A stretch of DNA of 20,000 nucleotides from an uncultured virus (IMG/VR IMGVR_UViG_3300017766_004071) (IMGVR_UViG_3300017766_004071:55705-75704), one strand, 5' to 3'; numbered from the stretch's first letter, positions 1,593-14,949 are shown. Numbers and translations: made by a program. The notes: generated from the letters alone by a model not told the origin.

Positions 1593-1715
1593 AGTCTTGT
1601 GGCGGAATGGTAGACGCAGCTGTGATAACTTCGCTGGAAGGTGAATCTCCTTTAAAATATTAGCAGGGTCAATCAGTTCTCAGTTATCGTATAGGTTCAA
1701 ATCCTATCAAGACTA
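1593..1715 (+). ncRNA. Leu-type tRNA scaffold with insert, copy A (123 nt)
   Basis: AGTCTTG/CAAGACT acceptor, Leu-like D arm GGCGGAATGGTAGACGC, T arm; no anticodon arm, insert closed by GATAACT/AGTTATC. Confidence 0.75.
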
Positions 1716-1734
1716 CAAAAAAAAATTTTAAATC

Positions 1735-1765
1735 TTGGAACTAAATGGTGAGAGAAGGGGTTTAT
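1735..1765 (+). promoter_or_regulatory. ECF-sigma-like promoter, copy 2
   Basis: GGAACT 1737-1742, N17, GTTTAT. Confidence 0.6.
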
Positions 1766-1787
1766 GTAAATGAATTTAGAAACAATT

Positions 1788-1874
1788 GGAGGATAAAGTA
1801 ATCAGGGTCGTTACCACCGCCTGCTAAGCGAGTGGCACCAAGTATGGTGTGGGGTTCGTGTCCTCTGTCCTCCG
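1788..1874 (+). tRNA. trnS: tRNA-Ser(GCT)
   Basis: GGAGGAT/GTCCTCC acceptor, G73, loop CTGCTAA, variable arm GCACCA/TGGTGT. Confidence 0.85.
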
Positions 1875-1891
1875 CAAAAAAATATTAATAA

Positions 1892-1957
1892 GATTAGAGC
1901 AGTTGAGTTCATAACTCAAAGGAATGCAGACAGTGGAGATGAGCGACCCACCTAATC
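1892..1957 (+). ncRNA. Putative small structured RNA
   Basis: GATTAG/CTAATC closing stem; hairpins TTGAGTT/AACTCAA and GTGG/CCAC. Confidence 0.4.
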
Positions 1958-1989
1958 ATTTTAAATGAATAAAAAAATATTCCAAAGTG

Positions 1990-2021
1990 TTTGGAAATTA
2001 GAAAATGAAATCGTAATTTTG
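1990..2021 (+). promoter_or_regulatory. Bacteroidota primary-sigma promoter
   Basis: TTTG 1990-1993, TAATTTTG 2014-2021; directly upstream of scaffold B. Confidence 0.75.
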
Positions 2022-2033
2022 TGATACAATAAT

Positions 2034-2181
2034 AGTCCTGTGGCGGAATTGGTAGACGCTATTAAGATAACTAAGGCAGTATATTTTCTCGGAGTAAATA
2101 TGCAAAGTCATAGTGTTGTACAGATTATCCGAGTGACGAGTACATGCTTAATTTTTACAGGTTCGAATCCTGTCAGGACTA
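2034..2181 (+). ncRNA. Leu-type tRNA scaffold with insert, copy B (148 nt)
   Basis: AGTCCTG/CAGGACT acceptor, D and T arms; insert closed by ATTAAG/CTTAAT with two hairpins. Confidence 0.75.
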
Positions 2182-2204
2182 CAAAAAATTAAAAAATAAA
2201 AGTT

Positions 2205-2381
2205 ATGGACACACATTATTGGGTAAGATTTGAGATTAGAATTGAAACTATCAACAATCAATTAACTTCTGATGAACAAAAAGAAATCTTTGACTATATA
2301 AAATCAAGAATTGACGGTAGAGATGACATAGATAGACCTAAAAAGTTGGATTGTTGTTTTGTCAATATGAGGAAATTTTAG
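2205..2381 (+). CDS. Hypothetical protein (58 aa)
   Basis: Read manually (MDTHYWVRFEIRIET...); fills the gap between scaffolds B and C. Confidence 0.6.
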   Translation: MDTHYWVRFEIRIETINNQLTSDEQKEIFDYIKSRIDGRDDIDRPKKLDCCFVNMRKF

Positions 2382-2394
2382 ATAAGTTAAATCA

Positions 2395-2524
2395 AGTCCT
2401 GTGGCGAAAGCTAAGGGTAGAGTGAAGATTGAATGTTCAGACACTCCTTAATACTAGGATTGGAGCGAAAGGTCTAACATAAACAATATGTAGCTTAATA
2501 CGGGTTCGAATCCTGTCAGGACTA
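2395..2524 (+). ncRNA. tRNA scaffold with insert, copy C (130 nt, D arm degenerate)
   Basis: AGTCCTG TGGCG ... GGTTCGAATCCTGT CAGGACT A; insert closed by AAGCTA/TAGCTT. Confidence 0.7.
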
Positions 2525-2551
2525 TTTTTTAAACTATAAAATTAAAATATA

Positions 2552-2764
2552 ATGAACGCAAGAAAAGAAATACTTGGAAAAATAGAAGAGTTTGAAAAAC
2601 GTGTGAAGTATTGGAAAGATAGACAAATAAATTTTAAATGGACAGAAGAAACTATAAAAGAGGGTGACCCATTATTTGTAATGTGTCAAGATTTTGAACA
2701 TTCTTTTAAAGAAAAAATATTACTCTTGCAATGGGTATTAGATTTAATTAAAGATGAAAATTAA
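2552..2764 (+). CDS. Hypothetical protein (70 aa)
   Basis: ORF track. Confidence 0.7.
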   Translation: MNARKEILGKIEEFEKRVKYWKDRQINFKWTEETIKEGDPLFVMCQDFEHSFKEKILLLQWVLDLIKDEN

Positions 2765-2775
2765 AACAAACTAAT

Positions 2776-2952
2776 ATGATAAATAAAATTTCAGCACTTT
2801 TTGCACTTTTAATCGGTATAATGTATTTTTCTTTATTTGCATACGATATAGAATATGACCGAGATTTAATGACTTGGTTTTGGCTATTATTTTCCGAAAT
2901 TTGGTTTATGATTAGTTTACGTTTTTGGATTTTATATGATAAAAATAATTAA
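2776..2952 (+). CDS. Small membrane protein (58 aa)
   Basis: Read manually; two hydrophobic segments. Confidence 0.55.
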   Translation: MINKISALFALLIGIMYFSLFAYDIEYDRDLMTWFWLLFSEIWFMISLRFWILYDKNN

Positions 2953-2955
2953 AAA

Positions 2956-3105
2956 ATGTTAGTAATTATTGGTCTTTTATTTTTGATAATTGGAATCTTA
3001 TTCTTAATTTTGTCTTACAAAACAAAGAACTCAGACTTGTTTATAGTTGGAATTATATTTCTAATTGTTCTTTTGTTTGGATTTATATATGGTTTAATAA
3101 TATAG
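2956..3105 (+). CDS. Small membrane protein (49 aa)
   Basis: Read manually; MLVIIGLLFLIIGILFLILSYK..., two hydrophobic segments. Confidence 0.55.
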   Translation: MLVIIGLLFLIIGILFLILSYKTKNSDLFIVGIIFLIVLLFGFIYGLII

Positions 3106-3178
3106 AGTAGTAGCGCAATTGGTAGCGCACTCGGTTTGGGACCGAGAGATTTTGCAGGTTCGAGTCCTGTCTACTCTA
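3104..3178 (+). tRNA. trnP: tRNA-Pro(TGG)
   Basis: AGAGTAG/CTACTCT acceptor; CTCGG-TTTGGGA-CCGAG. Confidence 0.92.
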
Positions 3179-3186
3179 CAAGATTT

Positions 3187-3263
3187 AGGAAAGTATCCCC
3201 TCAGCCTTATACGCCGTAGAAAGGGTAACTGGTAACATATGGGTTCGAACCCCATCTTTCCTA
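3187..3263 (+). tRNA. Non-canonical tRNA-Ile(TAT)-like RNA without a normal D arm
   Basis: AGGAAAG/CTTTCCT acceptor, A73, normal T arm, 7-nt loop CTTATAC; D-loop-like AACTGGTA lies 3' of the anticodon arm. Confidence 0.65.
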
Positions 3264-3276
3264 CAAAATTATAATA

Positions 3277-3353
3277 CGGCAAGTATACCCTCCGTCTGAT
3301 ACACGGTAGAAAGGTTAATTGGTTACATATAGGTTCGATTCCTATCTTGCCGA
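3277..3353 (+). tRNA. Non-canonical tRNA-Ile(GAT)-like RNA without a normal D arm
   Basis: CGGCAAG/CTTGCCG acceptor, A73, CCGT-CTGATAC-ACGG; same architecture and length (77 nt) as 3187-3263. Confidence 0.65.
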
Positions 3354-3362
3354 CAACAATAA

Positions 3363-3436
3363 GTCTCAGTAACTCAGTGGTTTAGAGTTCTCGACTGTTA
3401 ATCGAGTGGTCGTAGGTTCGAATCCTACCTGGGACG
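3363..3436 (+). tRNA. trnN: tRNA-Asn(GTT)
   Basis: GTCTCAG/CTGGGAC acceptor, G73; CTCGA-CTGTTAA-TCGAG. Confidence 0.94.
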
Positions 3437-3452
3437 CAAATTTTAATAAATT

Positions 3453-3680
3453 ATGGTTAATGTAAAAATTGGTGAATTTAAGGTTGGTGATAAGTTGTTT
3501 ATTGATTATAGTGAAGATAATCCAAACAATAAACACATCGAAATTAGAGCAATTGTGGATATGGAGGTGGTGATTTATTTGGATGACAAAAATAACTACC
3601 ATATGGAACCAATTCATTACTTCAATGTGTTATGTAGATGTCACTCACTTAAAAAAATAACAAATGAAACGGACAATTAG
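3453..3680 (+). CDS. Hypothetical protein (75 aa)
   Basis: ORF track; FKVGDK SH3/KOW-like start. Confidence 0.7.
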   Translation: MVNVKIGEFKVGDKLFIDYSEDNPNNKHIEIRAIVDMEVVIYLDDKNNYHMEPIHYFNVLCRCHSLKKITNETDN

Positions 3681-3819
3681 AAAACCAAGTTCTGCAAAGT
3701 TTTATGAAATGCTTAGAAATAAGTACAACAACTACATTAAGAAACAAGAAAATGAAATGGAAGATTCTACAAATTAGATTCCAACCTAAAAAATTTAATT
3801 AACAATATATAATTTTCAT

Positions 3820-4329
3820 ATGAAAAAAGAGTTTTTATTTAATGATAACATTATTGATTTTGAATTTGACGAAGTAATAGATAAAAAAATAAATGTTAAG
3901 GTATTTCACTATTTCAATAATAATCTTTTATTTGAAAAAATTGATGATAGAATAATTTGTCTTAAAGGTATTGGTAAATTATTCTTTCAAGAAGGATTCC
4001 CAATTTCATTATCTATTTCAAAATTAAAAGAACAAGGGGTTGAGGTTAGTATATTACACGTTGCTGATGAATGTTTAAAAAATGGGTGGTCACCAATCAC
4101 AACATATAATAAATTAAAATCTGACTTTGAAGAAGATATTGACAAAGAAAATCATTATGATTTACATTTATTAAAAAAATTTTGTGAATCAAATTATGAA
4201 GACCAAAGAGAAATGATATTTGAATATCTGTTTAAATGCAAAACTGATGATGTTAGAAATAAAAAAAATGAAAATCCAATAAATTGGTTACAATCACTTG
4301 TAACTAGTGGGGCTAAAAATAAACTTTAA
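3820..4329 (+). CDS. Hypothetical protein with possible AlaRS helical-domain-like motif
   Basis: GKLFFQEGFPISLSISKLKEQGVEV resembles AlaRS FKLYDTYGFPxDLT...ERGxxVD. Confidence 0.55.
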   Translation: MKKEFLFNDNIIDFEFDEVIDKKINVKVFHYFNNNLLFEKIDDRIICLKGIGKLFFQEGFPISLSISKLKEQGVEVSILHVADECLKNGWSPITTYNKLKSDFEEDIDKENHYDLHLLKKFCESNYEDQREMIFEYLFKCKTDDVRNKKNENPINWLQSLVTSGAKNKL

Positions 4330-4338
4330 CAAGAAAAT

Positions 4339-4413
4339 GACCCTGTAGCTTAGCTGGTTTAAAGCACAATACTTTTAATATTGGGAGCGGGAGTTCGAAT
4401 CTCCCCAGGGTCA
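4339..4413 (+). tRNA. trnK: tRNA-Lys(TTT)
   Basis: GACCCTG/CAGGGTC acceptor; CAATA-CTTTTAA-TATTG. Confidence 0.94.
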
Positions 4414-4422
4414 CAACACAAT

Positions 4423-4507
4423 GTCCTTATGGTGTAATGGTTAAACATCCCACTCTTACAAAGTGGAGACGAGAAGTATAATCCTAGTTCGAATCTAGGT
4501 AAGGACA
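4423..4507 (+). tRNA. trnV: tRNA-Val(TAC) with 16-nt variable region
   Basis: GTCCTTA/TAAGGAC acceptor; CCACT-CTTACAA-AGTGG. Confidence 0.88.
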
Positions 4508-4535
4508 CATTAAATGATTTTTAAAATATAAAAAA

Positions 4536-4784
4536 ATGAAAAAAATATTATTTCTTGGTTTGATATCTGTATTATTCCTTAGTTGCAAAAGAGAAGCTAA
4601 AGAAGAAATAGAAACAGATAATACTAATTATAGTGTTGAACTTCTATTTGAAGTTGATGGATGTAAAGTCTATCGATTTTTGGATGGTGAATTCCATTAT
4701 TTCACAACTTGTAATGGTTCTGTAACTCATAAAAGTAATGAAAAAAACTCCAAAGATTTGGAAATACAAACCGTTGTGAAATAA
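4536..4784 (+). CDS. Lipoprotein, DUF4884-like
   Basis: Signal peptide with lipobox FLSC; VELLFEVDGCKVYRFxDG..HYFT motif. Confidence 0.7.
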   Translation: MKKILFLGLISVLFLSCKREAKEEIETDNTNYSVELLFEVDGCKVYRFLDGEFHYFTTCNGSVTHKSNEKNSKDLEIQTVVK

Positions 4785-5015: not shown

Positions 5016-5101
5016 GGTCGGGTGGCCGAGTTGGTTAAGGCACTAGTCTGCAAAACTATCGAATGAAAAATTCATCGTGGGTTCAAATCCCTCCCCGACC
5101 T
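5016..5101 (+). tRNA. trnC: tRNA-Cys(GCA) with long variable arm
   Basis: GGTCGGG/CCCGACC acceptor, U73, loop CTGCAAA, variable hairpin ATGAA/TTCAT. Confidence 0.9.
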
Positions 5102-5164
5102 CAAAAAAAAAGTTCAGTTAGTTATTTTTACTCATTTTGTTGATATTTATATATATATATATAT

Positions 5165-5942: not shown

Positions 5943-6017
5943 GGGAATGTAGCTCAATTGGATTAGAGTAGTGGATTCCAGACCCACAGGTTATAGGTTC
6001 GAGTCCTATCGTTCTCG
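5943..6017 (+). tRNA. trnW: tRNA-Trp(CCA)
   Basis: GGGAATG/CGTTCTC acceptor, G73; GTGGA-TTCCAGA-CCCAC. Confidence 0.9.
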
Positions 6018-6048
6018 CAAATTTTATCAACAATTTAAAATACTTATT

Positions 6049-6360
6049 ATGGTAAGGGATTACATAATCGAAACATTAAAGAAAATCAAGGAACACGATG
6101 AGAAGGTGCACAAGTTGTATGATATGGGAGTTGATTTACTTGACTTTAACAATACCACGTCCCAACTTGAGAAGTCTATTCCGACCATCCTCAGAAAAGA
6201 AAAAGACGAATCATACGGATGGATACAGGATTTAGTTGGTTGGTGGTTGTATGAAAATATTGAAAAAAAGATTTGGTATGATGAAATTGAAGTTAATGTT
6301 GAAAGTGTCGAAGATTTTACCGACTATTTATTAAAAGAGTACAGCTCTATTAATGAATAA
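6049..6360 (+). CDS. Hypothetical protein (103 aa)
   Basis: Start moved to ATG 6049 because the track start (5971) lies inside tRNA-Trp. Confidence 0.75.
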   Translation: MVRDYIIETLKKIKEHDEKVHKLYDMGVDLLDFNNTTSQLEKSIPTILRKEKDESYGWIQDLVGWWLYENIEKKIWYDEIEVNVESVEDFTDYLLKEYSSINE

Positions 6361-6371: not shown

Positions 6372-7709
6372 ATGAAAATTTTCTATTCAATTTTACTAAT
6401 CTTTTTACCTTTTTTAATTTATTCCCAAGGTCTTATAATAAATGAAATATCAAATGGTGATTCTGGAAACAGAGAATATTTTGAGTTAGTTGTTATTGGC
6501 TCGACTTCAAACCCTACAATAAGTGTAGACTTGGGTGGATGGATAATAGATGATAATAATGGAGATTTTGAAGGTGTTTTAAGTGGGGTTGGTACAGCTC
6601 AAGGTCATATAAGAATTAAACCAGGATGTTTATCTAATGTAAAACCTGGGTCAATTATTTTAATTTATAATAGTGCTGATGTTAATCCCACTTTTGGGAT
6701 AACTCCAGACCCATTAGATTTTGATGGTGATTGTGTTTATATTTTACCAATAAGTGATTTGTGTTTGGATAATACATCAAATTTACCAACAACAACAAAT
6801 CCATTGTATACTCCAGTTAGTTATACCGCAACAAGAATTTGGGATAGGATTGGATTTAGAAATGATGGTGATGCCGCACAAGTTAGAAGTCCAAATGGTT
6901 TATTTTTTCACGGATTTTCATACGGGGATGTGTCAACCCCATTTCCCACTTTTCCATTTGGTGGTTCATCTTTTAATATTATAACAGGGAGTGGATTACA
7001 AAGAAATTATTTTTTCAATAGTGGTAGTTTTGGAGCAAAAGTCAATTTCAGTAGAGGTGTTGCCCCAACAAATGAAACTCCAGGTCAACCAAATAATGAT
7101 GCCAATAGATATTTTATAAATTCATTAAGAATTGGGACTTATAATTATTCAAACTTATTAGACCCAATTAATATTGGTTCATCAACAACATTGGTTGATT
7201 GTGGGACAATATTACCAATTGGTATAATTGAATTTAAGGGAACAAAAATTAACGATAATGTCAATCTTCAATGGACGCTTGATAATGTCACAGAAGTCAA
7301 TTATATTGAGTTGGAGAAGAGTTCAAATGGTTATGATTTCTATCCCATTTCTGAGATTTATCCTTATGATTTAACAATGAATTATATTGATGATTTGACT
7401 TACTCAGAAAATTATTATAGACTTAAAATTGTTGAATATAGTGGTGATATAACTTATAGTAATATTATTAATATCTCAAATAAAATTAACGATGATGTAT
7501 TAATATATCCCAATCCAACAAAAGATATATTGAATATAAAAACAATCAAAAATATTAATAGAATTTCACTATTTAATGAACTTGGGGTTGAATTTGTTAT
7601 TGAGAATCCGACATCTCAAATTGATTTATCCTCATTGTCAAAAGGAATTTATATAGTTAAGATTAATATTGATGAGAATACAATTATTAAAAAAATAATA
7701 TTAATTTAA
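6372..7709 (+). CDS. Secreted protein with lamin-tail-like N domain and T9SS type A C-terminal sorting domain
   Basis: Signal peptide; LIINEIS..EYFELVV..DLGGWIIDD; C-terminal IYPNPT..LNI..IDLSSLSKGIYIVKI..KKII. Confidence 0.85.
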   Translation: MKIFYSILLIFLPFLIYSQGLIINEISNGDSGNREYFELVVIGSTSNPTISVDLGGWIIDDNNGDFEGVLSGVGTAQGHIRIKPGCLSNVKPGSIILIYNSADVNPTFGITPDPLDFDGDCVYILPISDLCLDNTSNLPTTTNPLYTPVSYTATRIWDRIGFRNDGDAAQVRSPNGLFFHGFSYGDVSTPFPTFPFGGSSFNIITGSGLQRNYFFNSGSFGAKVNFSRGVAPTNETPGQPNNDANRYFINSLRIGTYNYSNLLDPINIGSSTTLVDCGTILPIGIIEFKGTKINDNVNLQWTLDNVTEVNYIELEKSSNGYDFYPISEIYPYDLTMNYIDDLTYSENYYRLKIVEYSGDITYSNIINISNKINDDVLIYPNPTKDILNIKTIKNINRISLFNELGVEFVIENPTSQIDLSSLSKGIYIVKINIDENTIIKKIILI

Positions 7710-8360: not shown

Positions 8361-8876
8361 ATGACACCAATGGTAATTGTAAATTTCTATAAACCCTATG
8401 ATACAACTTGGGAACTACTCCAACTAATGGCATTGGATAAAATTGCCGAACACGAAAAGGAAACAAGTGAAGTTGAATTTGGAGATGTATCCGTTCAACA
8501 ACAATTTGATGATTATCGTGCAGCTTGTTTTCAAGGGTTAAAAACATTTATAATGCAAGTTTTAAATGAATGGGGAACTGAAAACATCTTGGTGTTTAAT
8601 GATAAATTCTATAAGAAATTTGAACATATGGAAATGGAGGGTAGATTAAAAACTTATACAACTCCCAATGTTTTCAAAACATCAAAAGAATTATTCAAAT
8701 GTTTAAAGAAAGAAAAGTTTCAGTTAGAACCAGATGATTTTGATTTCATTCACGAAACTTTTTCAAGTGCTGATGATGTTGTGTGTAATATATTCGCATT
8801 TGAATATGAATTAAAAGAAATTGATGATGATAAGGATTGGTTAGATGAGAACGGATTTGGTGATATTTTAGAATAA
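8361..8876 (+). CDS. Hypothetical acidic protein (171 aa)
   Basis: ORF track; tight gene packing. Confidence 0.8.
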   Translation: MTPMVIVNFYKPYDTTWELLQLMALDKIAEHEKETSEVEFGDVSVQQQFDDYRAACFQGLKTFIMQVLNEWGTENILVFNDKFYKKFEHMEMEGRLKTYTTPNVFKTSKELFKCLKKEKFQLEPDDFDFIHETFSSADDVVCNIFAFEYELKEIDDDKDWLDENGFGDILE

Positions 8877-8891
8877 AAAAAAGATAATAAT

Positions 8892-9104
8892 ATGAAAACA
8901 ATAGGCGTATTAGAAGCATTGAAAGATGAAACAATTAAAAAAGGAGATAAAATAATTATTGAACTTATTGTTGATGAAATAGATATTGAAAGTATGTACC
9001 CATTATCTGCATTTTGTTTTAATAAATATGATGAAATATCAAAAACTAATTATTTTAAATTGTCATGGAGTACTAAAATAAAAATAAAAGACAATAATAG
9101 TTAA
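8892..9104 (+). CDS. Hypothetical protein (70 aa)
   Basis: ORF track. Confidence 0.7.
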   Translation: MKTIGVLEALKDETIKKGDKIIIELIVDEIDIESMYPLSAFCFNKYDEISKTNYFKLSWSTKIKIKDNNS

Positions 9105-9177
9105 TTTTTTTTGTAACCAACTTGACCTTTTGTATTATATCGTTATATTTAATAAAAAAATAGTAAAAACTTCACAA

Positions 9178-9249
9178 ATGAAACACAATCTCTATATGGA
9201 CTTAACGACTGGAGCTGAGGGTAGAAATCCTCGGATGGAGATGGTATAA
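9178..9249 (+). CDS. Leader peptide 2 (23 aa, MKHNLYMDLTTGAEGRNPRMEMV), putative attenuator of tRNA block 2
   Basis: ATG 9178, TAA 9247-9249, terminator follows; codons 5-16 all match block 2 tRNAs. Confidence 0.8.
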   Translation: MKHNLYMDLTTGAEGRNPRMEMV

Positions 9250-9357: not shown

Positions 9358-9837
9358 ATGAGAAAACAAACACCATACATATCCTCTTCGGTCGCCATAA
9401 AAGGGATTAATGATTCAGGACTTGCAAAGTCTGAAACAAACGATTGTGTAGTTAGAGCTTTTGCTTCAGCTTTCAACGTGACTTATGATTTTGCTCACAA
9501 AAAGGTTGCTGAAATATTTGGAAGAAAAAACGGACAAGGAACTTATTGTTTTAGTTTGGTGATGAGGTCTTTGGAAAGTAAAGGAATTAGTGTTAATAGA
9601 AAAAAAATTAAAACAATAAGTAAAGATGTGAACCTTTCTTATTGGATTAAGGTTAAAGGTGTAAACACTTTGAGAAGTATGACAACTGCAAAGTTTTTGG
9701 AGGATTATCCCAAAGGAACTTACATAGTCACAGTCAAAGGTCACGCTTTTACAATTAAAGATGGGGTGGTGATTGGAAATCCTGATGATGCAACAAAGAG
9801 AAAAAAAACTATCTATGGAGCTTGGAAAATTGGATAA
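9358..9837 (+). CDS. Phage protein with possible papain-like Cys-His dyad
   Basis: NDCVVRAFA ... GTYIVTVKGHAFTIKDG motifs. Confidence 0.65.
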   Translation: MRKQTPYISSSVAIKGINDSGLAKSETNDCVVRAFASAFNVTYDFAHKKVAEIFGRKNGQGTYCFSLVMRSLESKGISVNRKKIKTISKDVNLSYWIKVKGVNTLRSMTTAKFLEDYPKGTYIVTVKGHAFTIKDGVVIGNPDDATKRKKTIYGAWKIG

Positions 9838-9855
9838 GATTACCTACTTTTGTGA

Positions 9856-9868
9856 TGTTCATTGAAAT
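9856..9868 (+). promoter_or_regulatory. boxA-like antitermination site
   Basis: TGTTCATTGAAAT just before the first tRNA of block 2; parallels 213-225. Confidence 0.55.
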
Positions 9869-9886
9869 TGAGGGAAAAATATTAAA

Positions 9887-9960
9887 GGGCTATTGGTGTA
9901 GTGGTCGAACATGCCACCCTGTCACGGTGGAGAACAGGGGTTCAAATCCCCTATAGCTCG
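9887..9960 (+). tRNA. trnD: tRNA-Asp(GTC)
   Basis: GGGCTAT/ATAGCTC acceptor, G73; CCACC-CTGTCAC-GGTGG. Confidence 0.94.
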
Positions 9961-9973
9961 CAATACTTTAATT

Positions 9974-10063
9974 AATCGGTTGGTGTAAGTGGAAATGAAT
10001 ACCACCTTGGGTAGCAACCTATTTTTAGAATGGGGGATGTAGGTTCGAATCCTACACTGGTTA
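9974..10063 (+). ncRNA. tRNA-like RNA with expanded anticodon region
   Basis: AATCGGT/ACTGGTT acceptor, perfect T arm GTAGG-TTCGAAT-CCTAC, inserted TGGGT-AGCA-ACCTA hairpin. Confidence 0.6.
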
Positions 10064-10079
10064 AAAAAAGTTTTAAAAG

Positions 10080-10110
10080 TTGGAACTAAATGATATGAAG
10101 GTTGGTTTAT
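10080..10110 (+). promoter_or_regulatory. ECF-sigma-like promoter, copy 3
   Basis: GGAACT 10082-10087, N17, GTTTAT. Confidence 0.6.
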
Positions 10111-10136
10111 AATAATGTAACTTAAAAAAATAGATT

Positions 10137-10283
10137 ATGACAAACTTTATGATAAATTTTATTATTCTTGCTATTTTTATAATGCTTTTGGGTTTTATTG
10201 GTAACTATATCATAAAAAAATATCCAGATTCTTGGGTAGCAAAATGGTGGGATGATATGACTGATATTGGTCATTGGTGGTAA
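10137..10283 (+). CDS. Small membrane protein (48 aa)
   Basis: Read manually; one TM segment then a Trp-rich tail. Confidence 0.55.
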   Translation: MTNFMINFIILAIFIMLLGFIGNYIIKKYPDSWVAKWWDDMTDIGHWW

Positions 10284-10469: not shown

Positions 10470-10553
10470 GCCTAGGTGGTGTAATGGTAGCCACGCAAGA
10501 CTTAAAATCTTGTGACCAGTAAGGTCGTGCGGGTTCGAGTCCCGCCCTGGGTA
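10470..10553 (+). tRNA. trnL: tRNA-Leu(TAA)
   Basis: GCCTAGG/CCTGGGT acceptor; CAAGA-CTTAAAA-TCTTG; long variable arm. Confidence 0.94.
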
Positions 10554-10569
10554 CAAAAAAATAAAAAAC

Positions 10570-10795: not shown

Positions 10796-10827
10796 TTTGG
10801 AATTAAGAAAATCAAATCGTAATTTTG
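10796..10827 (+). promoter_or_regulatory. Bacteroidota primary-sigma promoter
   Basis: TTTG 10796-10799, TAATTTTG 10820-10827; directly upstream of scaffold E; near-identical to 1990-2021. Confidence 0.75.
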
Positions 10828-10836: not shown

Positions 10837-10929
10837 AGTCTTGTGGCGGAATGGAAGACGCTCGCTTCAAGGTGCGGTTAGTCAACGAAATGTAAAGCTA
10901 ACGTACAGGTTCGAATCCTGTCAGGACTA
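10837..10929 (+). ncRNA. Leu-type tRNA scaffold, copy E (93 nt; degenerate Leu-CAA-like arm)
   Basis: AGTCTTG/CAGGACT acceptor; TCGC-TTCAAGGT-GCGG 8-nt loop; enlarged variable arm. Confidence 0.7.
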
Positions 10930-11124: not shown

Positions 11125-11176
11125 CAAATCTCAGAAGTAATTAATCTGGGGCTGAGAGGTTCGAAACTCACGGAAA

Positions 11177-11276
11177 TGATTATGGTGTAGGCGCACGGAA
11201 AGATAAAGTATGAGAATGGTAAGTACCCATTAAAGAAATTGACATCAGGATTAAGGTTCGAATTCTTATTAATCAA
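11177..11276 (+). ncRNA. Degenerate tRNA-like RNA with expanded core
   Basis: TGATTA/TAATCA acceptor, TAAGG-TTCGAAT-TCTTA T arm, ACA 3' end; no anticodon arm. Confidence 0.45.
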
Positions 11277-11285
11277 CAAACATTA

Positions 11286-11326
11286 TGTGTATAGGATTTT
11301 TGGGTTGTGTATAGGATTTTCGGGTT
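11286..11326 (+). repeat. Tandem 20-bp duplication upstream of HNH gene
   Basis: TGTGTATAGGATTTT(T/C)GGGT x2. Confidence 0.8.
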
Positions 11327-11346: not shown

Positions 11347-11928
11347 ATGGAAGAATTAAATAGACATCAAAAAGCTGCATTGGTAAGTGGTATTAAGCGT
11401 AGACAGAAATCACTACAAGAATACTACGAAAATCCTAATATTTGTAGGTGTTGCAATAAACCAATTATGGTTGGTGAAAAACAAAAAGTTCGTGAGGTTA
11501 GAAGAAAAGTTTTTTGTGACCATAGTTGTTCTGCAACTTTTAATAATCAACAAAGAGAAATTAAAGAACCGATTAAAAAAAATAAAGAACCAAGACCTAA
11601 AAAGGAAAATAAAGAATCTAAACCTAAAAAGGAAAAATTTGAATTTATTTTAGGTTTAACTAAAAAAGATTTGTTTGAAAAACACGAAATTTATTATAGA
11701 TTTAGAGCAGTAATTAGGAAACATGCACATTATATTTTCAACAAACATCATAAAGACCAAAAATGTAAGGTTTGTGGATATAATACTCACGTAGAAGTTT
11801 GTCATATAAAATCAGTTTCATCTTTCAGTGATGATACTCTAATAATTGAGATAAATTCTATAGATAATTTAGTTGGGTTATGCCCTAATCATCATTGGGA
11901 ATTTGACAATGGTAAAATAAAATTATAA
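11347..11928 (+). CDS. HNH endonuclease
   Basis: CKVCG..VEVCHIK..NLVGLCPNHHWEFD; N-terminal Zn ribbon. Confidence 0.85.
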   Translation: MEELNRHQKAALVSGIKRRQKSLQEYYENPNICRCCNKPIMVGEKQKVREVRRKVFCDHSCSATFNNQQREIKEPIKKNKEPRPKKENKESKPKKEKFEFILGLTKKDLFEKHEIYYRFRAVIRKHAHYIFNKHHKDQKCKVCGYNTHVEVCHIKSVSSFSDDTLIIEINSIDNLVGLCPNHHWEFDNGKIKL

Positions 11929-11935: not shown

Positions 11936-12021
11936 CGCAAGGTGGACGAGTGGTCAATGTCAGGGGTCTCATAAGCCTCTTCTGCGAAAGTGGAACTTCG
12001 GTTCGAATCCGAACTTTGCGT
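11936..12021 (+). tRNA. trnM: tRNA-CAT (probably Met) with long variable arm
   Basis: CGCAAGG/CTTTGCG acceptor; GGGGT-CTCATAA-GCCTC; TTCTGC-GAAA-GTGGAA arm; U73. Confidence 0.82.
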
Positions 12022-12034
12022 CAAATTATTAAAA

Positions 12035-12120
12035 GGGTGTCTATCCAAATTGGTGAAGGAAGCTGTCTGTAAAACAGTTGCTATATGCTAAACTTGGGGG
12101 TTCGAATCCCTCGGCACCCA
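12035..12120 (+). tRNA. trnY: tRNA-Tyr(GTA)
   Basis: GGGTGTC/GGCACCC acceptor; GCTGT-CTGTAAA-ACAGT. Confidence 0.9.
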
Positions 12121-12124
12121 CAAA

Positions 12125-12328
12125 AGAAATGAAACCTTACATAGGATGGATTAGCACCATTGAAAGGGAACTTGGCTCTCATAGGGTCGCAACCTAAATC
12201 GAGAGTAATAATGACCCAAGTTGCTATGTAGGAGACCCTGCTCTACCGTGCACGGTATCAGGTGATGGGGAACAAACCATCATTAAACGTCTTGCCCATA
12301 TAATGCTTATGGAAGGACTTTCATTTCT
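12125..12328 (+). ncRNA. Putative large structured RNA (204 nt)
   Basis: AGAAATGAAA/TTTCATTTCT closing; nested CTTACATAG/CTATGTAGG, AACTTGG/CCAAGTT, CTCTC/GAGAG; fills the Tyr-Gly gap exactly. Confidence 0.6.
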
Positions 12329-12333
12329 AATTT

Positions 12334-12408
12334 GCAGTAATAGCTCAATGGTAGAGTTCTTGTCTTCCAAACAAGATGTTGCGAGTTCGAGTCTCGCTTA
12401 CTGCTCCA
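12334..12408 (+). tRNA. trnG: tRNA-Gly(TCC), CCA encoded
   Basis: GCAGTAA/TTACTGC acceptor, U73; CTTGT-CTTCCAA-ACAAG. Confidence 0.94.
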
Positions 12409-12424
12409 AATTTAAAAATTCATT

Positions 12425-12637
12425 ATGAATCAGTCCGAATTTAGAAATCTTAGAACTGGGGATAAAATCCATATTAAGTCTCGTGATGGTTTATATACCT
12501 TCTTAAAAAAAGACTTTAGAACTGGTGAAATTCATATAACCTGTAAAATATGGCAATATGAAGAAAATCCGATAAGAGTAACAAGTTTTGATGATTTCAA
12601 ATGTTTGGCTGGTGGTTTATGGAGAAAAATTATGTAA
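12425..12637 (+). CDS. Hypothetical protein (70 aa)
   Basis: ORF track. Confidence 0.7.
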   Translation: MNQSEFRNLRTGDKIHIKSRDGLYTFLKKDFRTGEIHITCKIWQYEENPIRVTSFDDFKCLAGGLWRKIM

Positions 12638-12710
12638 TAGGAGAAAGTAAGTCGGTTGGTGTATAGCTTCCTTACGTCTAAAATTTAAGCACGATTACAT
12701 AATACAAAAA

Positions 12711-12784
12711 GGGGGATTAGCTCAGCTGGCTAGAGCACTTGATTTGCATTCAAGAGGTCATCGGTTCGACTCCGATATCCTCCA
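12711..12784 (+). tRNA. trnA: tRNA-Ala(TGC)
   Basis: GGGGGAT/ATCCTCC acceptor with G3:U70; CTTGA-TTTGCAT-TCAAG. Confidence 0.95.
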
Positions 12785-12816
12785 CTGAAAAATAAACATT
12801 GTTTTAAATTTAATTT

Positions 12817-13422
12817 ATGAAAAAATTTTTAGTATTTTTAGTGTTAGTAGTATTATTGACATCTTGGTCATATACACCCCCACGTAGGGTATTATTTATC
12901 GGTGATAGTTTAACCTGTGCAACTGGTGGGTGGCAAGACCAAGTTTCCAAACATTTTGGATATCAAAGGGTCAATTTATCTAAAGGTGGTGTTAGAACGG
13001 ATTATATGAGGACAACCCTAAATGCTTGTTTTAAAAACGATTCAGCTTTTTCAAGTGTTTTTATCTATGGTGGATGTAATGATGCTTTCTCTTATGTAAA
13101 TCTCCAAGGTGCGGTTAATAACATTCAAATGATGGTTGATAGTTGTAATAGAAGAGGAATTGAACCAATTGTGATTGTGGGTTTTAATCCAGCTCAAGTA
13201 ACAACAAAGACTGTGTATGATGCAGAAACAACCAAGAGATGTGTTGGAAGATACATTGAGTTTCAAAAGTTGATGGTTCACGAGAAAACTGGTTTAAAAA
13301 ATTGTAAGATAATTCCAATGGACACTACAATGTTTTATAGTGATACTGGAGATGGAATTCATTTTGCTGCGAGTGGTCATAGAAAATTTGCTAATTGGGT
13401 TATAAATCATATGGAAAAATGA
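12817..13422 (+). CDS. Secreted SGNH/GDSL hydrolase
   Basis: Signal peptide; FIGDSLT, KGG, GCND, DGIH blocks. Confidence 0.9.
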   Translation: MKKFLVFLVLVVLLTSWSYTPPRRVLFIGDSLTCATGGWQDQVSKHFGYQRVNLSKGGVRTDYMRTTLNACFKNDSAFSSVFIYGGCNDAFSYVNLQGAVNNIQMMVDSCNRRGIEPIVIVGFNPAQVTTKTVYDAETTKRCVGRYIEFQKLMVHEKTGLKNCKIIPMDTTMFYSDTGDGIHFAASGHRKFANWVINHMEK

Positions 13423-13670
13423 AAAAAATATTTTGGTTTTCAATTTTAATCACTATCTTTGTATCCTGTAACAAACACCCCACGATAGAACCTGGTGATA
13501 TTGTTAAGAAGTGTGTAATTGATACGATGTATATTACAGAATCTCCATCCACAATTGAATTTGGTAAGAGATATAATTATAAAACCGATTGTGATGAATT
13601 GATAATGACAAGAAGAAGTGATGTGTATGAAATAGGGGATACAATAACCTACGTTTATAAAAGAAGATAA
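13419..13670 (+). CDS. Small lipoprotein (83 aa)
   Basis: Start at ATG 13419 (ATGA overlap with the upstream stop); lipobox FVSC. Confidence 0.7.
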   Translation: MKKIFWFSILITIFVSCNKHPTIEPGDIVKKCVIDTMYITESPSTIEFGKRYNYKTDCDELIMTRRSDVYEIGDTITYVYKRR

Positions 13671-13676
13671 TTATTT

Positions 13677-13762
13677 GCCGTTTTCGCATAGTGGTTGATT
13701 GCACTGGATTTGTAACCCAGTTCCGTTAGGACACGTCAGTTCGAATCTGACAAACGGCTCCA
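13677..13762 (+). tRNA. trnT: tRNA-Thr(TGT) with variable arm, CCA encoded
   Basis: GCCGTTT/AAACGGC acceptor; CTGGA-TTTGTAA-CCCAG; TCC-GTTA-GGA arm. Confidence 0.9.
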
Positions 13763-13767
13763 AAAAT

Positions 13768-13977
13768 CCCAATTGATGTAGATAGATTGGGTGGTCAGTA
13801 AGCCTAATTGCTCGTATTATGGTTAATATGTCACTATAACCAGGGTTGCCAAGACCAGATTGTTGGCAGTTTACACGAGATAGTCACTCGCATTTTCTAC
13901 AAAAGGCAAAAAACACTAGTCCGTTTCTACAGGATGATGGGGCATTGAAAAAGTGTAGCTAACTTGGAAGATACCCC
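13768..13977 (+). ncRNA. Putative structured RNA (~210 nt)
   Basis: CCCAAT/ATTGGG, CTCGT/ACGAG enclosing TGGTTA/TAACCA and TGCCAA/TTGGCA, terminal GGGG/CCCC. Confidence 0.45.
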
Positions 13978-14067
13978 AAAATTTTTTAAAAAAAACATAG
14001 GAAAAAGTGAATAATTCAGGAAGAACAACTATCTTTGTCTTATTAATCACTGAAACACATAATCACA

Positions 14068-14298
14068 ATGGCTAAAGAGAAAAAAACAATCCAAGTTGAG
14101 TTATTAAAAGAATTCGCAAACAACTATTTGGCTATTCCAATGGTTTCTATCCAAGAAAAAATGGGCATTATCACAATGATTGAAAAGGTTCTACACGAAT
14201 CTAATGCCTATAAAGGTTATATGTATTTAAAACTTGAAGAAAACAATACCCCCCCAGCATTTGGTAGTGAGGGGTGGGCAACAAGAAAATATTTTTAA
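14068..14298 (+). CDS. Hypothetical protein (76 aa)
   Basis: ORF track; TATCTTTG -7-like element at 14030-14037. Confidence 0.75.
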   Translation: MAKEKKTIQVELLKEFANNYLAIPMVSIQEKMGIITMIEKVLHESNAYKGYMYLKLEENNTPPAFGSEGWATRKYF

Positions 14299-14316
14299 TT
14301 TAAAACTTTGAATATT

Positions 14317-14580
14317 ATGGCACTTATTTATGTAATCTTGGATAGCAACGATAGAATTCCTATTCTAACTGCAAGTAGTATTGAAAAAGCTGAATTACTT
14401 TTGAATCAATATATGGGTGTTGAAGGTCCTATATTTGATGAAAGTGTTGAGTATATAGGTTTTGAACCATTTGATGACAGAGGTTATTATGAAATTTATG
14501 AAGGTGAATACAAATATAAGACAGAAGATGGTGAACAAAGATTCATAAGATATTGTATGTCATTAGATAGTTTATATTAA
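14317..14580 (+). CDS. Hypothetical acidic protein
   Basis: ORF track; ATG 14317 preferred over TTG 14308. Confidence 0.7.
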   Translation: MALIYVILDSNDRIPILTASSIEKAELLLNQYMGVEGPIFDESVEYIGFEPFDDRGYYEIYEGEYKYKTEDGEQRFIRYCMSLDSLY

Positions 14581-14585
14581 AATTT

Positions 14586-14731
14586 AGTCCTGTGGCGGAA
14601 TGGAAGACGTTTGGGTGCAAATCCCATTAGCCCAAAGGGGGTTACAATATATTGAGGTTCGATTCCTCTACTGGTACGGATGTGTCAGATTGGCGTTGTT
14701 GTAAATACAGGTTCGATTCCTGTCAGGACTA
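14586..14731 (+). ncRNA. Leu-type tRNA scaffold with insert, copy F (146 nt)
   Basis: AGTCCTG/CAGGACT acceptor; insert contains two extra T-arm-like hairpins. Confidence 0.75.
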
Positions 14732-14737
14732 CAACAT

Positions 14738-14825
14738 TTAAAACATCAACTCGTAAAGAAAATGATGGCAAAGAGGTTCAGATAAAGGTAACGAGCTCCT
14801 ACCTACCCTGAACAAGATGTTTTAA
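14738..14825 (+). ncRNA. Putative pseudoknotted RNA
   Basis: TTAAAACATC/GATGTTTTAA closing; GTTCAG/CTGAAC + AGGTA/TACCT hairpin with loop ACGAG pairing to CTCGT. Confidence 0.5.
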
Positions 14826-14832
14826 TTAATAT

Positions 14833-14946
14833 GGTCAAGTGGCGGAATGGAAGACGCTAAGTAAGATGGTGTACGTTTGTCCCATAAGAAAGACCGATGC
14901 AACAGAAATGTGAAGGGTCGTATAGGTTCAAATCCTATCTTGACTA
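14833..14946 (+). ncRNA. Leu-type tRNA scaffold with insert, copy G (114 nt)
   Basis: GGTCAAG/CTTGACT acceptor, GGCGGAATGGAAGACGC D arm, T arm; no 7-nt anticodon loop. Confidence 0.72.
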
Positions 14947-14949
14947 CAA

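What the first reader, a model, noticed from the sequence alone, without database searches (positions are those of the whole stretch)
1593..14946. Family of Leu-type tRNA scaffolds carrying unrelated structured cargo RNAs
Seen: six elements (1593-1715, 2034-2181, 2395-2524, 10837-10929, 14586-14731, 14833-14946). Five share AGTC(C/T)TG-TGGCG ... TA(C/T)(A/G)GGTTC(G/A)A(A/T)TCCT(G/A)T-CA(G/A)GACT-A; the sixth has a compensated GGTCAAG/CTTGACT acceptor. The anticodon/variable region is replaced by different inserts (total 93-148 nt) that still fold into closed helices. Two copies sit directly behind near-identical promoters. Established: bacterial LeuRS largely ignores the anticodon and reads A73 plus the elbow; RNase P/Z read the acceptor-T domain; engineered tRNA scaffolds stabilise inserted RNAs. 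Inference: a natural RNA display cassette, for example decoys or aptamers against tRNA-targeting defences, or processing and recombination hubs.
Basis: partly seen in the sequence, partly recalled or inferred. Interest (0 to 1): 0.82.

Follow-up and report, generated by a model that had tools for sequence, protein, structure and literature searches.

The report
Phage tRNA-Leu look-alikes with swapped middles
A large freshwater phage carries a family of genes shaped like leucine tRNAs, in which the codon-reading part is replaced by many unrelated sequences, so they probably make stable tRNA-shaped RNAs that cannot decode and whose job is unknown.

Summary
All six elements share a leucine-tRNA-type acceptor stem, D arm, T arm and A73, and their middles are unrelated. 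The 75.7-kb phage contig has two more copies. Exact-pattern scans of viral and metagenome contigs gave 56 insert clusters with lengths of 61-212 nt; about five of these look like ordinary tRNAs.

The conserved parts are the ones that RNase P and bacterial LeuRS read: A73, U8, A14, A15 with U48, and G18G19. The parts LeuRS ignores are the parts replaced. Stems in the scaffold change in compensated pairs.

The inserts match no Rfam family. A relative carries a real group I intron in tRNA-Leu(UAA), and that one is detected, so the search works. Inserts are conserved within a type, and homology to related phages breaks exactly at element ends.

Evidence that the inserts are structured is weak. Folding energies are no better than shuffled sequence, and only two helices covary. 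RNA data showed no ends.

Best reading: non-decoding, tRNA-processed RNAs derived from tRNA-Leu, of the same kind as T4 species 1 RNA. Their conserved ends also act as recombination points. Function is unknown.

A Ro60-like gene and a covarying Y-RNA-like gene lie just upstream of the window. This scan has flagged similar single tRNA-shaped RNAs in other big phages before.

The parts
1593..1715 (+). Element 1: 123-nt tRNA-Leu-type scaffold (acceptor AGTCTTG/CAAGACT, T stem ATAGG/CCTAT, A73) with a 72-nt middle
   Evidence: RF00005 41.4 bits. Patterns. The same insert occurs in another scaffold variant with compensated acceptor and T stems.
2034..2181 (+). Element 2: 148-nt scaffold with a 97-nt middle. 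It lies behind a Bacteroidota-type promoter and 23 nt upstream of ORF 2205-2381.
   Evidence: Not matched by RF00005. Variants in related contigs differ by 1-3 bases.
2395..2524 (+). Element 3: 130-nt scaffold with a degenerate D arm and a 79-nt middle, followed by a T run
   Evidence: It is 126/130 identical in relatives G002 and G003, and 3 of the 4 changes fall in the T stem and keep pairing. Flanks there are rearranged.
10837..10929 (+). Element 4: 93-nt scaffold. The anticodon-like hairpin has an 8-nt loop. It lies behind the same promoter type.
   Evidence: ARAGORN calls it 'tRNA-???' with a 4-base anticodon caag. RF00005 35.6 bits. Promoter.
14586..14731 (+). Element 5: 146-nt scaffold holding an anticodon-like hairpin (loop UGCAAAU), a variable-arm-like hairpin, an internal second T-arm-like hairpin and two further hairpins
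   Evidence: RF00005 32.5 bits. ARAGORN calls the first 91 nt tRNA-Leu(caa). 98.8% of 168 cells are paired and 2 pairs are compensated in 4 sequences. Homology to G002/G003 starts and ends at the element ends.
14833..14946 (+). Element 6: 114-nt scaffold with the compensated acceptor GGTCAAG/CTTGACT and a 64-nt middle
   Evidence: RF00005 33.6 bits. It is 114/114 identical in G002 and G003, while the 200 nt upstream are 81-86% identical and the downstream sequence does not align.
1990..2021 (+). Bacteroidota-type promoter motif TTTG-N20-TAATTTTG, 12 nt upstream of element 2
   Evidence: 8 matches in the window against 1.55 expected, and 0 of 200 shuffles reach 8. Consensus taken from PMC7366714 (passage read).
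10796..10827 (+). The same promoter motif, 9 nt upstream of element 4

Best explanation
The six elements, plus at least two more on the contig, are genes for non-decoding tRNA-shaped RNAs that descend from a phage tRNA-Leu.

Shown: the conserved ends form the acceptor stem, D arm and T arm, with A73, U8, A14, A15 paired to a U48-like base, and the T loop. This is the upper half and elbow of a tRNA. The anticodon and variable arms are replaced by type-specific middles of 11-161 nt. Stem changes in the scaffold are compensated. Each insert type is a conserved unit that recurs in related phages inside different scaffold variants and different flanks.

Inferred: the elements are transcribed with the tRNA island, three of them from their own Bacteroidota-type promoter. 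They are cut out by RNase P and by the same 3' processing as the neighbouring tRNAs, since they share the CAA trailer, and then receive CCA. This would give stable RNAs that cannot read codons. Because the retained features are the ones bacterial LeuRS needs and the lost ones are those it ignores, the RNAs may be leucylated. In that case the tRNA body acts as a processing and stability handle, and perhaps a protein-binding handle, for the middle. The middle's partner is unknown.

The near-identical ends also serve as crossover points that shuffle the middles and the small neighbouring ORFs between phages.
For: Scaffold: chance expectation for the shared patterns is about 0. RF00005 reaches gathering score on 4 of 6 elements. 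Among 95 distinct family sequences the discriminator is A in 95/95, positions 8-9 are UG in 92/95, and the base before the T stem is U in 92/95, against 29% U in the inserts. Acceptor pairs are kept in 89-95 of 95 and T-stem pairs in 94-95 of 95.

Compensated acceptor and T stems surround an unchanged insert in two types: element 1 and the 112/113-nt type.

According to PMC9976931, the E. coli Leu identity elements are A73, A15-U48, G18G19 and the D/T-loop contacts. The anticodon and variable arm are not among them, and truncated tRNA-Leu lacking both arms is still charged.

Ordinary tRNA-Leu genes with the same acceptor and T arm exist in other contigs: L097 (UAG, 82 nt) and L167 (UAA, 83 nt).

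These are not introns. No Rfam family hits the inserts at E<=1, whereas a true group I intron in a relative's tRNA-Leu(UAA) scores 62.3 bits.

The trailer CAA follows 5 of 6 elements and 21 of all 30 tRNA or tRNA-like genes listed. A promoter sits upstream of elements 2 and 4.

Insert conservation against flanks: 126/130, 114/114 and 92-93% identity inside elements, where flanks are 68-86% identical or do not align. Helix covariation is seen in two types. GNRA-type GAAAGG occurs in 9 of 56 insert clusters against 1.0 expected. Homology breakpoints fall at offsets 0, 0, -3/+3 and +4 from element ends.
Against: There is no direct evidence of a discrete processed RNA, of CCA addition or of charging. 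The only RNA run was held as contigs, covered the elements thinly, and cannot show ends.

Insert folding energies are no better than shuffles for all six.

Covariation rests on 4-5 sequences per type, and each compensated pair may reflect a single event. No compensated pair was found inside the inserts of elements 1, 2, 3, 4 or 6.

High insert identity could reflect recent exchange by recombination rather than selection, because the flanks have separate histories.

Some family members have almost no middle (61 and 70 nt), so the scaffold alone may be what functions.

The counts are biased, because members were collected with an exact 3' pattern.

The host's LeuRS rules are assumed from E. coli and Aquifex work.
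Confidence: 0.55

Rival explanations
1. The elements act in cis as processing and regulatory cassettes. Only the tRNA upper half matters. It makes RNase P and the 3' tRNA nucleases cut polycistronic transcripts and so sets the ends of the small flanking mRNAs, as plant mitochondrial t-elements do. The repeated promoter-plus-scaffold units drive modular shuffling, as PeSL cassettes do in T4-type phages. The middles are tolerated filler.
For: Of 53 insert clusters with enough downstream DNA, 33 are followed within 45 nt by an ATG ORF of at least 40 open codons. In the window, elements 2 and 3 lie 23 and 27 nt before ORFs, and elements 3 and 5 lie 13 and 5 nt after ORFs. Members exist with almost no middle, at 61 and 70 nt. 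Breakpoints fall exactly at element ends and neighbouring ORFs are rearranged. Insert folding is no better than shuffles. Three copies share a 44-nt promoter block.
Against: Insert types persist unchanged while the scaffold and both flanks change. One type keeps two helices through 35% divergence, with compensated pairs. Filler of up to 161 nt is unexpected in a phage genome. Elements 1, 5 and 6 have no ORF directly behind them. No null rate for 'ORF within 45 nt' was computed.
Confidence: 0.22
2. The elements are decoys or sponges. Their tRNA-Leu-like bodies would soak up a host tRNA-targeting defence enzyme or LeuRS and so protect the phage's and host's real tRNAs. The middles would vary to escape recognition or to lack cleavage sites.
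For: The scaffold keeps the full elbow and acceptor end. The window also encodes RNA-repair and alarmone-type proteins: cREC_REC at 17109-17531 and an HD/SpoT-like protein at 17534-18115. The phage carries a near-complete tRNA set of its own.
Against: A decoy explains neither dozens of conserved, different middles nor lengths up to 212 nt. No defence system that targets tRNA-Leu was identified here. Nothing was tested.
Confidence: 0.08
3. The elements are partners or substrates of the phage's own Ro60-like protein. They would be Y-RNA-like molecules with the reverse topology of YrlA: an open acceptor end, and the protein-binding part placed where the anticodon arm would be.
For: A 467-aa protein ends 366 nt before the window. 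Its model has Ro60 structures as the 12 best-ranked Foldseek rows (E 1.2e-9 to 3.4e-5). In 20 of 20 relatives with at least 71% identity and enough downstream sequence, this gene sits 560-1672 nt upstream of the tRNA island. YrlA Y RNAs carry a tRNA-like domain, lie next to Ro60, and one is cut by RNase P and receives CCA (PMC4201824; bioRxiv 10.1101/312249).
Against: A better candidate partner exists. A 183-nt RNA starts 9-11 nt after the Ro60-like gene's stop codon, has a 5'/3' terminal stem, and shows 8 of 31 pairs compensated. The elements have no terminal Ro-binding stem. Rfam YrlA does not match at E<=1. In 58 more distant Ro60-like loci, only 19 have any tRNA within 10 kb, and 1 has a long Leu-type element.
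Confidence: 0.07
4. The elements are intron-bearing tRNA-Leu genes, and the middles are spliced out to give working tRNAs.
For: Lak megaphages were reported to have tRNAs with 'enigmatic introns' (PMC6784885, passages read). Relatives of this phage do carry a group I intron in tRNA-Leu(UAA). Element 5 holds a hairpin with CAA in its loop.
Against: No catalytic-intron signature is found at E<=1, although the control intron is detected. The middles are 43-97 nt, far below group I size. In 5 of 6 elements, no 5-bp stem with a 7-nt loop carrying a Leu anticodon flanks the insert. Element 5's loop has G at the position of U33. The phage already has intact tRNA-Leu(UAA) and tRNA-Leu(UAG) genes.
Confidence: 0.03
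5. The elements are decaying tRNA-Leu pseudogenes, left by repeated recombination and homing-endonuclease activity in the tRNA island.
For: HNH endonuclease genes lie in the island at 11347-11928 and 15314-15919. Orthologous tRNA slots hold mosaic or different alleles. Insert folding is not better than chance.
Against: Scaffold stems are maintained by compensated changes, and A73 and U48 are near-invariant. Elements are far better conserved than their flanks. Three copies have dedicated promoters. The family is spread over many contigs.
Confidence: 0.05

Closest known systems
Phage T4 stable RNA species 1 (rnaC) of the tRNA gene cluster
   Same: Both are genes inside a phage tRNA cluster. The T4 record annotates a 139-nt 'small, stable RNA'. 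Its sequence ends in a canonical T arm (CCGGG-TTCGAAT-CCCGG) followed by a 3' strand that pairs with the 5' end, and about 100 nt lie in between. Its function is still unknown.
   Different: T4 has a single copy with no Leu-type D arm, and its end pairing is imperfect (5 of 7 by my reading). In this window there is a multi-copy family with one near-invariant Leu-type scaffold and dozens of different middles. No sequence similarity between the two was tested or seen. That species 1 RNA is an RNase P substrate is my recollection, not a call.
YrlA-type bacterial and phage Y RNAs (Rfam RF02553)
   Same: Both are tRNA mimics with T arm, D arm and the Levitt 15-48 pair. Both are encoded near a Ro60 gene. 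One YrlA is cut by RNase P and CCA-tailed, and long variable loops are common (PMC4201824; 10.1101/312249).
   Different: YrlA is circularly permuted. Its ends form the Ro-binding stem at the anticodon-stem position, and its acceptor stem is closed by a loop. In these elements the ends form an open acceptor stem. RF02553 finds no match at E<=1.
'Enigmatic introns' in tRNA genes of Lak megaphages (Devoto et al. 2019, PMC6784885)
   Same: Both are oversized tRNA genes in large phages of Bacteroidota. The inserts are conserved between genomes and fit no known intron class, and one Lak insert 'may itself encode a tRNA' (passages read). Element 5 has an internal T arm.
   Different: The Lak cases are single tRNAs of several amino-acid types that keep an anticodon assignment. 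Here one Leu-type scaffold is reused with many middles and mostly has no anticodon loop. I could not compare sequences, and I did not open the Lak supplements.
Engineered tRNA scaffolds for recombinant RNA (Ponchon and Dardel; PMC3753655)
   Same: The design is the same: a foreign RNA placed in the anticodon region of a tRNA so that the cell processes and stabilises it. I saw this paper as a search listing and abstract only.
   Different: Those scaffolds are artificial. Nothing here shows that the natural middles are cargo with a function.
PeSL mobile regulatory cassettes of T4-type phages (PMC2839356, PMC4122927)
   Same: Both are repeated promoter-containing motifs that flank small ORFs in variable regions, and recombination breakpoints coincide with them. 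I saw the listing and the start of the abstracts only.
   Different: PeSLs are a promoter plus a terminator stem-loop, not tRNA-shaped, and they are not under tRNA-type structural selection.

Membership tests
tRNA (Rfam RF00005) | Covariance-model score at or above the 29-bit gathering threshold | tested here: inconclusive
   Four of six elements pass (41.4, 35.6, 33.6 and 32.5 bits). Elements 2 and 3 are not reported even at E<=1.
Decoding tRNA-Leu | 5-bp anticodon stem with a 7-nt loop, U33 and a Leu anticodon | tested here: not met
   ARAGORN gives element 4 a 4-base 'anticodon' in an 8-nt loop, and calls only a truncated part of element 5, whose loop UGCAAAU has G at position 33. It makes no call for elements 1, 2, 3 or 6. 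Constrained folds show no such arm.
Decoding tRNA-Leu | Bacterial Leu identity set: A73, A15-U48, G18G19 and the D/T-loop contacts | tested here: met
   By sequence only: A73 in 95/95, the U48-like base in 92/95, and the D arm GCGGAAU(U)GGUAGACGC in most members. The feature list comes from PMC9976931. Charging itself was not tested.
Group I intron-containing tRNA | Group I catalytic core (Rfam RF00028) inside the anticodon loop | tested here: not met
   No match in the window at E<=1. As a positive control, the relative's tRNA-Leu(UAA) in L078 10415-10606 scores 62.3 bits.
YrlA / Y RNA | Encoded next to a Ro60 gene | tested here: met
   The Ro60-like gene ends 366 nt before the window. The nearest element is about 1.9 kb further on.
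YrlA / Y RNA | The 5' and 3' ends pair into a long Ro60-binding stem, and the RF02553 model matches | tested here: not met
   The ends form a 7-bp acceptor stem. There is no RF02553 or Y_RNA match at E<=1.
tmRNA | tRNA-Ala-like ends with a tag reading frame | tested here: not met
   ARAGORN reports no tmRNA. The ends are Leu-type.
T4 rnaC-like stable RNA of a phage tRNA cluster | Lies in a phage tRNA cluster, with T arm plus paired ends around a long non-tRNA middle | tested here: met
   Comparison with the T4 record. This is a likeness of design. No family model exists, and homology was not tested.
T4 rnaC-like stable RNA of a phage tRNA cluster | Accumulates as a discrete stable RNA | not testable with these tools
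   The RNA run was held only as contigs.

The most novel reading that the evidence does not exclude
A lineage of Ro60-encoding jumbo phages of Bacteroidota uses one leucylatable, anticodon-less tRNA-Leu body as a natural, modular display scaffold. Dozens of interchangeable RNA modules would be cut out by the tRNA-processing enzymes, CCA-tailed and possibly charged. Each would bind a different host or phage partner, and new combinations would arise by recombination at the constant ends.
Probability: 0.2. Interest if true: 0.85.

Novelty: new variant of a known kind. Interest (0 to 1): 0.66.

Why it matters
tRNA-shaped RNAs of unknown function have been known in phage tRNA clusters since the T4 species 1 and 2 RNAs, but only as isolated cases. 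This window offers a family large enough for comparative work. It has one scaffold that keeps the leucine identity set, and about 50 different middles. Several copies occur per genome, and the genes sit beside a phage Ro60-like gene and a Y-like RNA. If the RNAs are processed and charged, they would be a natural counterpart of the engineered tRNA scaffold and a new class of phage small RNA. If only the scaffold matters, they would show tRNA punctuation and tRNA-mediated gene shuffling in a phage. Either result can be tested with RNase P, CCA-adding and LeuRS assays and with small-RNA sequencing.

Tried and rejected
- **RNA evidence.** One metatranscriptome run (X24) held 9% of the sampled words. 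When laid on the window, it gave contigs identical to the window at 5985-6229, 8379-8625, 9073-9243, 9723-10166, 11162-11323, 14927-15119, 17138-17400 and 19685-19948. Depth over the elements was thin and contigs carry no end information, so nothing can be said about expression of the elements.
- **Shared motif in the inserts.** I first thought 'AGAT' recurred. It is not above the best k-mer expected by chance: AGATTG occurs in 6 of 36 clusters, and the mean null maximum is 6.1. With 56 clusters, only GAAAGG/CGAAAG and ACCCCT exceed the null.
- **Antisense targets.** The longest reverse-complement matches of the 8 contig inserts to the 75.7-kb contig are 10-12 nt, within shuffled expectation. 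The host genome is unknown, so host targets were not tested.
- **Sigma-70 promoter and terminator scan.** It was uninformative: 119 promoter-like sites found against 106 expected, and 7 terminator-like sites against 7.7.
- **Isolate phages.** In INPHARED, megablast of the whole window found one 36-nt match. blastn of element 4 found 54 records, all covering 39% of the query or less and limited to the T arm; none covered 80% or more.
- **Bacterial genomes.** The exact 3' pattern matched 33 loci. Thirty are ordinary 72-73-nt class-I tRNAs (anticodon loops of Val-UAC type in cyanobacteria and Arg-CCU type in Chitinophagaceae and Sphingobacteriales). One is an ordinary-size tRNA that my finder mis-delimited. 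Two lie on a 32,898-bp phage-like contig binned into a MAG.
- **Earlier notes.** Nothing was on file for this genome or this sequence.
- **Protein atlas.** The look-up did not complete and I did not repeat it.
- **Literature.** Searches found no description of this family. This covers only the held open-access library.

Full report
**Where the window lies.** The window is the last 20 kb of a 75.7-kb viral contig that CheckV rates 27% complete, so it is a fragment of a jumbo phage. ARAGORN finds 24 tRNA genes on the + strand. The host is probably a member of the Bacteroidota, on two grounds. ORF 6372-7709 carries a type-IX secretion sorting domain (Por_Secre_tail, E 7.5e-13). The Bacteroidota promoter motif TTTG-N18-22-TAnnTTTG occurs 8 times against 1.55 expected, and 0 of 200 shuffles reach 8. 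The consensus is taken from a passage of PMC7366714. DNA runs that hold the sequence are labelled freshwater, lake or subsurface metagenomes.

**The observation.** All six elements are real and lie at the stated coordinates. The 5' pattern matches 6 times (0.26 expected) and the 3' pattern 7 times (0.00 expected). Lengths are 123, 148, 130, 93, 146 and 114 nt. Rfam's tRNA model passes its threshold on four of them, but not on elements 2 and 3. The contig holds two more copies (506-582, 77 nt; 881-972, 92 nt) and a related element at 990-1087. About 44 nt upstream of elements 2 and 4, and of the copy at 506, are nearly identical and contain the promoter motif.

**How large the family is.** An exact scan with the 3' pattern found 73 loci in viral contigs. 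Pooling these with four related tRNA islands gave 108 distinct sequences with a Leu-type D arm. These fall into 63 insert clusters, and 56 of the clusters belong to the AGUC...GACUA family. Lengths run from 61 to 212 nt. About five of the 56 look like ordinary tRNAs. Two of those are standard tRNA-Leu genes (L097 with UAG, L167 with UAA) that have the same acceptor and T arm, which points to a tRNA-Leu origin for the family. One member (L138, 61 nt) has only an 11-nt linker between the D and T arms. Among bacterial species representatives, the pattern occurs only in ordinary class-I tRNAs and in one mis-binned phage contig. No isolate phage in INPHARED holds a whole element.

**What is conserved.**
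- Across 95 distinct family sequences the discriminator is A in 95, positions 8-9 are UG in 92, and the base before the T stem is U in 92. Inserts contain 29% U.
- Acceptor pairs are kept in 89-95 of 95 sequences and T-stem pairs in 94-95.
- These counts are biased, because members were collected through the 3' strand.
- Independent support comes from compensated stems. Element 1's insert sits in AGUCUUG/CAAGACU with T stem AUAGG/CCUAU in the window, and in AGUCCUG/CAGGACU with ACAGG/CCUGU in L199. The 112/113-nt type sits in AGUCAGG/CCUGACU or AGUCCUG/CAGGACU.
- The review PMC9976931 (passages) states that E. coli leucine identity rests on A73, the A15-U48 pair, G18G19 and the D/T-loop contacts. 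[quoted passage not shown] The family therefore keeps what LeuRS reads and has replaced what LeuRS ignores. That the elements are charged is an inference.

**The middles.**
- They are unrelated to one another. No k-mer is shared beyond chance in 36 clusters. With 56 clusters only GAAAGG/CGAAAG (GNRA-type hairpins, 9 of 56 against 1.0 expected) and ACCCCU (5 of 56) stand out.
- They match no Rfam family at E<=1. In relatives G003 and G004 the orthologue of the window's tRNA-Leu(UAA) carries a 199-nt group I intron, which Rfam scores at 62.3 bits in the G003 island (L078). Real introns in this island are therefore recognisable, and the middles are not of that kind.
- Their predicted folding is no better than shuffled sequence, with z-scores from -1.21 to +0.19. 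This goes against the label 'structured cargo'.
- Covariation is limited. In element 5 (4 sequences), 98.8% of 168 cells pair, against 36-46% when the partners are slid. Two pairs of the anticodon-like stem are compensated, and four one-sided changes keep pairing.
- A type absent from the window (107-110 nt, 5 sequences) keeps a helix next to the T arm through two compensated pairs. It also has an invariant AAGUGA/UCACUU pairing that would make a pseudoknot, while its loops diverge.
- I found no compensated pair within the middles of elements 1, 2, 3, 4 or 6.

**Comparison with related phages.** Four related contigs (G001-G004) have syntenic tRNA islands. The slots between the standard tRNAs hold different family members in different phages. 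Where the same member is present, it is far better conserved than its surroundings:
- Element 3 is 126/130 identical, with rearranged flanks.
- Element 6 is 114/114 identical, against 81-86% upstream.
- Element 5 is 92-93% identical, against about 70%.

Local alignments start and stop at the element ends, at offsets 0/0, -3/+3 and +4. An ORF that lies upstream of element 3 in the window lies downstream of it in G002 and G003. The elements therefore behave as discrete units and as recombination junctions. This also means that high identity may reflect recent exchange rather than purifying selection. Standard tRNA genes of the island are mosaic in the same way.

**Context for processing.** The trailer after position 73 begins CAA for 5 of 6 elements and for 21 of all 30 tRNA or tRNA-like genes listed. 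Across the family it begins CAA in 31 of 53 clusters. Thirty-three of those 53 clusters are followed within 45 nt by an ORF. This fits the cis-acting 'punctuation' rival, but I computed no null rate for it.

**Ro60 and a Y-like RNA just upstream.**
- A 467-aa protein (Pfam DUF2828 plus DUF7788) ends 366 nt before the window.
- Its AlphaFold model (pLDDT 70.4) has Ro60/TROVE structures as the 12 best-ranked rows listed by Foldseek. These include a Thermus phage Ro60 (E 1.2e-9 and 1.3e-7), Deinococcus Rsr, and Xenopus and human Ro60.
- Nine to eleven nt after its stop codon lies an RNA of 132-185 nt (183 nt in this phage). It has a 13-bp terminal stem formed by its two ends and an internal loop. 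In 9 relatives, 8 of 31 predicted pairs are compensated. In the closest relatives it contains a T-arm-like hairpin.
- Rfam does not recognise this RNA.
- In 20 of 20 relatives with at least 71% protein identity and enough downstream DNA, the tRNA island starts 560-1672 nt after this gene. In 58 more distant loci, 19 have any tRNA within 10 kb.
- Published work places Y RNAs with tRNA-like domains next to Ro60 in bacteria and phages (PMC4201824; PMC12135203; 10.1101/312249).
- The adjacent RNA, not the six elements, is the natural candidate partner of the phage Ro60. The elements lack the terminal stem that defines Y RNAs. A functional link between the two is possible but was not tested.

**Verdict.** The elements are best read as tRNA-Leu-derived, non-decoding, tRNA-shaped RNA genes. 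Their bodies are kept for processing and for tRNA-type protein contacts, and their middles are type-specific, conserved modules of unknown function. Their constant ends also act as recombination points. The main rival is a purely cis-acting role in processing and gene shuffling.

The nearest known things are T4 species 1 RNA, the 'enigmatic introns' of Lak megaphages and YrlA. I found none of these described as a multi-copy, single-scaffold family, and the literature searches found no account of this one.

Earlier notes of this scan describe single tRNA-shaped RNAs with inserts in other large phages, so the phenomenon recurs. This case adds the family structure and the Leu identity logic.

Noticed in passing
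L205:1935-3338 (+), i.e. contig 53935-55338, ending 366 nt before window position 1: A 467-aa protein annotated only as DUF2828+DUF7788 is Ro60/TROVE-like by fold. The 12 best-ranked Foldseek rows are Ro60 structures (E 1.2e-9 to 3.4e-5). More than 8000 relatives exist, all labelled 'hypothetical'.
   Followed up: yes
L205:3348-3530 (+), i.e. contig 55348-55530; the same RNA at L240:11411-11593: A Y-RNA-like gene starts 9-11 nt after the Ro60-like stop codon. It has a 13-bp terminal stem formed by its 5' and 3' ends and an internal loop, and 8 of 31 predicted pairs are compensated in 9 relatives. The closest relatives carry a T-arm-like hairpin inside it. Rfam does not match it at E<=1.
   Followed up: partly
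L078:10415-10606 (relative G003); also relative G004 (L079): The orthologue of the window's tRNA-Leu(UAA) (window 10470-10554, intron-free) carries a 199-nt group I intron in the anticodon loop (RF00028, 62.3 bits).
   Followed up: partly
window 12227-12288 (+): A match to Rfam 'freshwater-1 RNA' (RF02979) at 68.7 bits, E 2.8e-14, just under its 72-bit threshold. It lies between tRNA-Tyr and tRNA-Gly.
   Followed up: no
window 3187-3263 and 3277-3353 (+): Two 77-nt tRNA-like genes (RF00005 28.6 and 31.1 bits) that seem to lack a normal D arm. Their loops read CUUAUAC and CUGAUAC, which would be Ile anticodons UAU and GAU. Relatives G002 and G003 have ordinary tRNA-Met and tRNA-Ile(GAU) in this slot.
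   Followed up: partly
window 4423-4508, 5016-5102, 11936-12022, 13677-13762, 15160-15248 (+): tRNAs that are normally class I (Val, Cys, Met, Thr, Arg-UCU) are 85-89 nt long here, with an extra hairpin in the variable region. For Thr, Arg, Cys and Met, relatives carry alleles of 73-76 nt without the hairpin in the same slot.
   Followed up: partly
window 14947-15159 (+): This is a non-coding stretch between element 6 and tRNA-Arg. The longest-depth phage-identical RNA contig of run X24 (193 nt, depth 16) covers 14927-15119.
   Followed up: no
window 9973-10064, 11126-11280; contig 990-1087: Further odd tRNA-like pieces with a T arm but non-standard bodies. These include a 92-nt 'tRNA-Gln' call and an element with TGATTA/TAATCA ends, which is expanded to 133 nt in relative G001.
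   Followed up: no
window 17109-17531 and 17534-18115 (+): A cREC_REC (cyclic-phosphate processing receiver) protein sits next to an HD-domain protein that resembles the SpoT/RelA hydrolase half. This suggests RNA-repair or alarmone counter-defence genes beside the tRNA island.
   Followed up: no
L204:7287-8339 and 8475-9155 (+); L204:6147-6980 (-): An Hsp70 gene is split into two ORFs 135 nt apart. A 277-aa class-II aminoacyl-tRNA-synthetase-like protein (tRNA-synt_2, E 7.2e-15) is too short to be a full AsnRS or AspRS.
   Followed up: no
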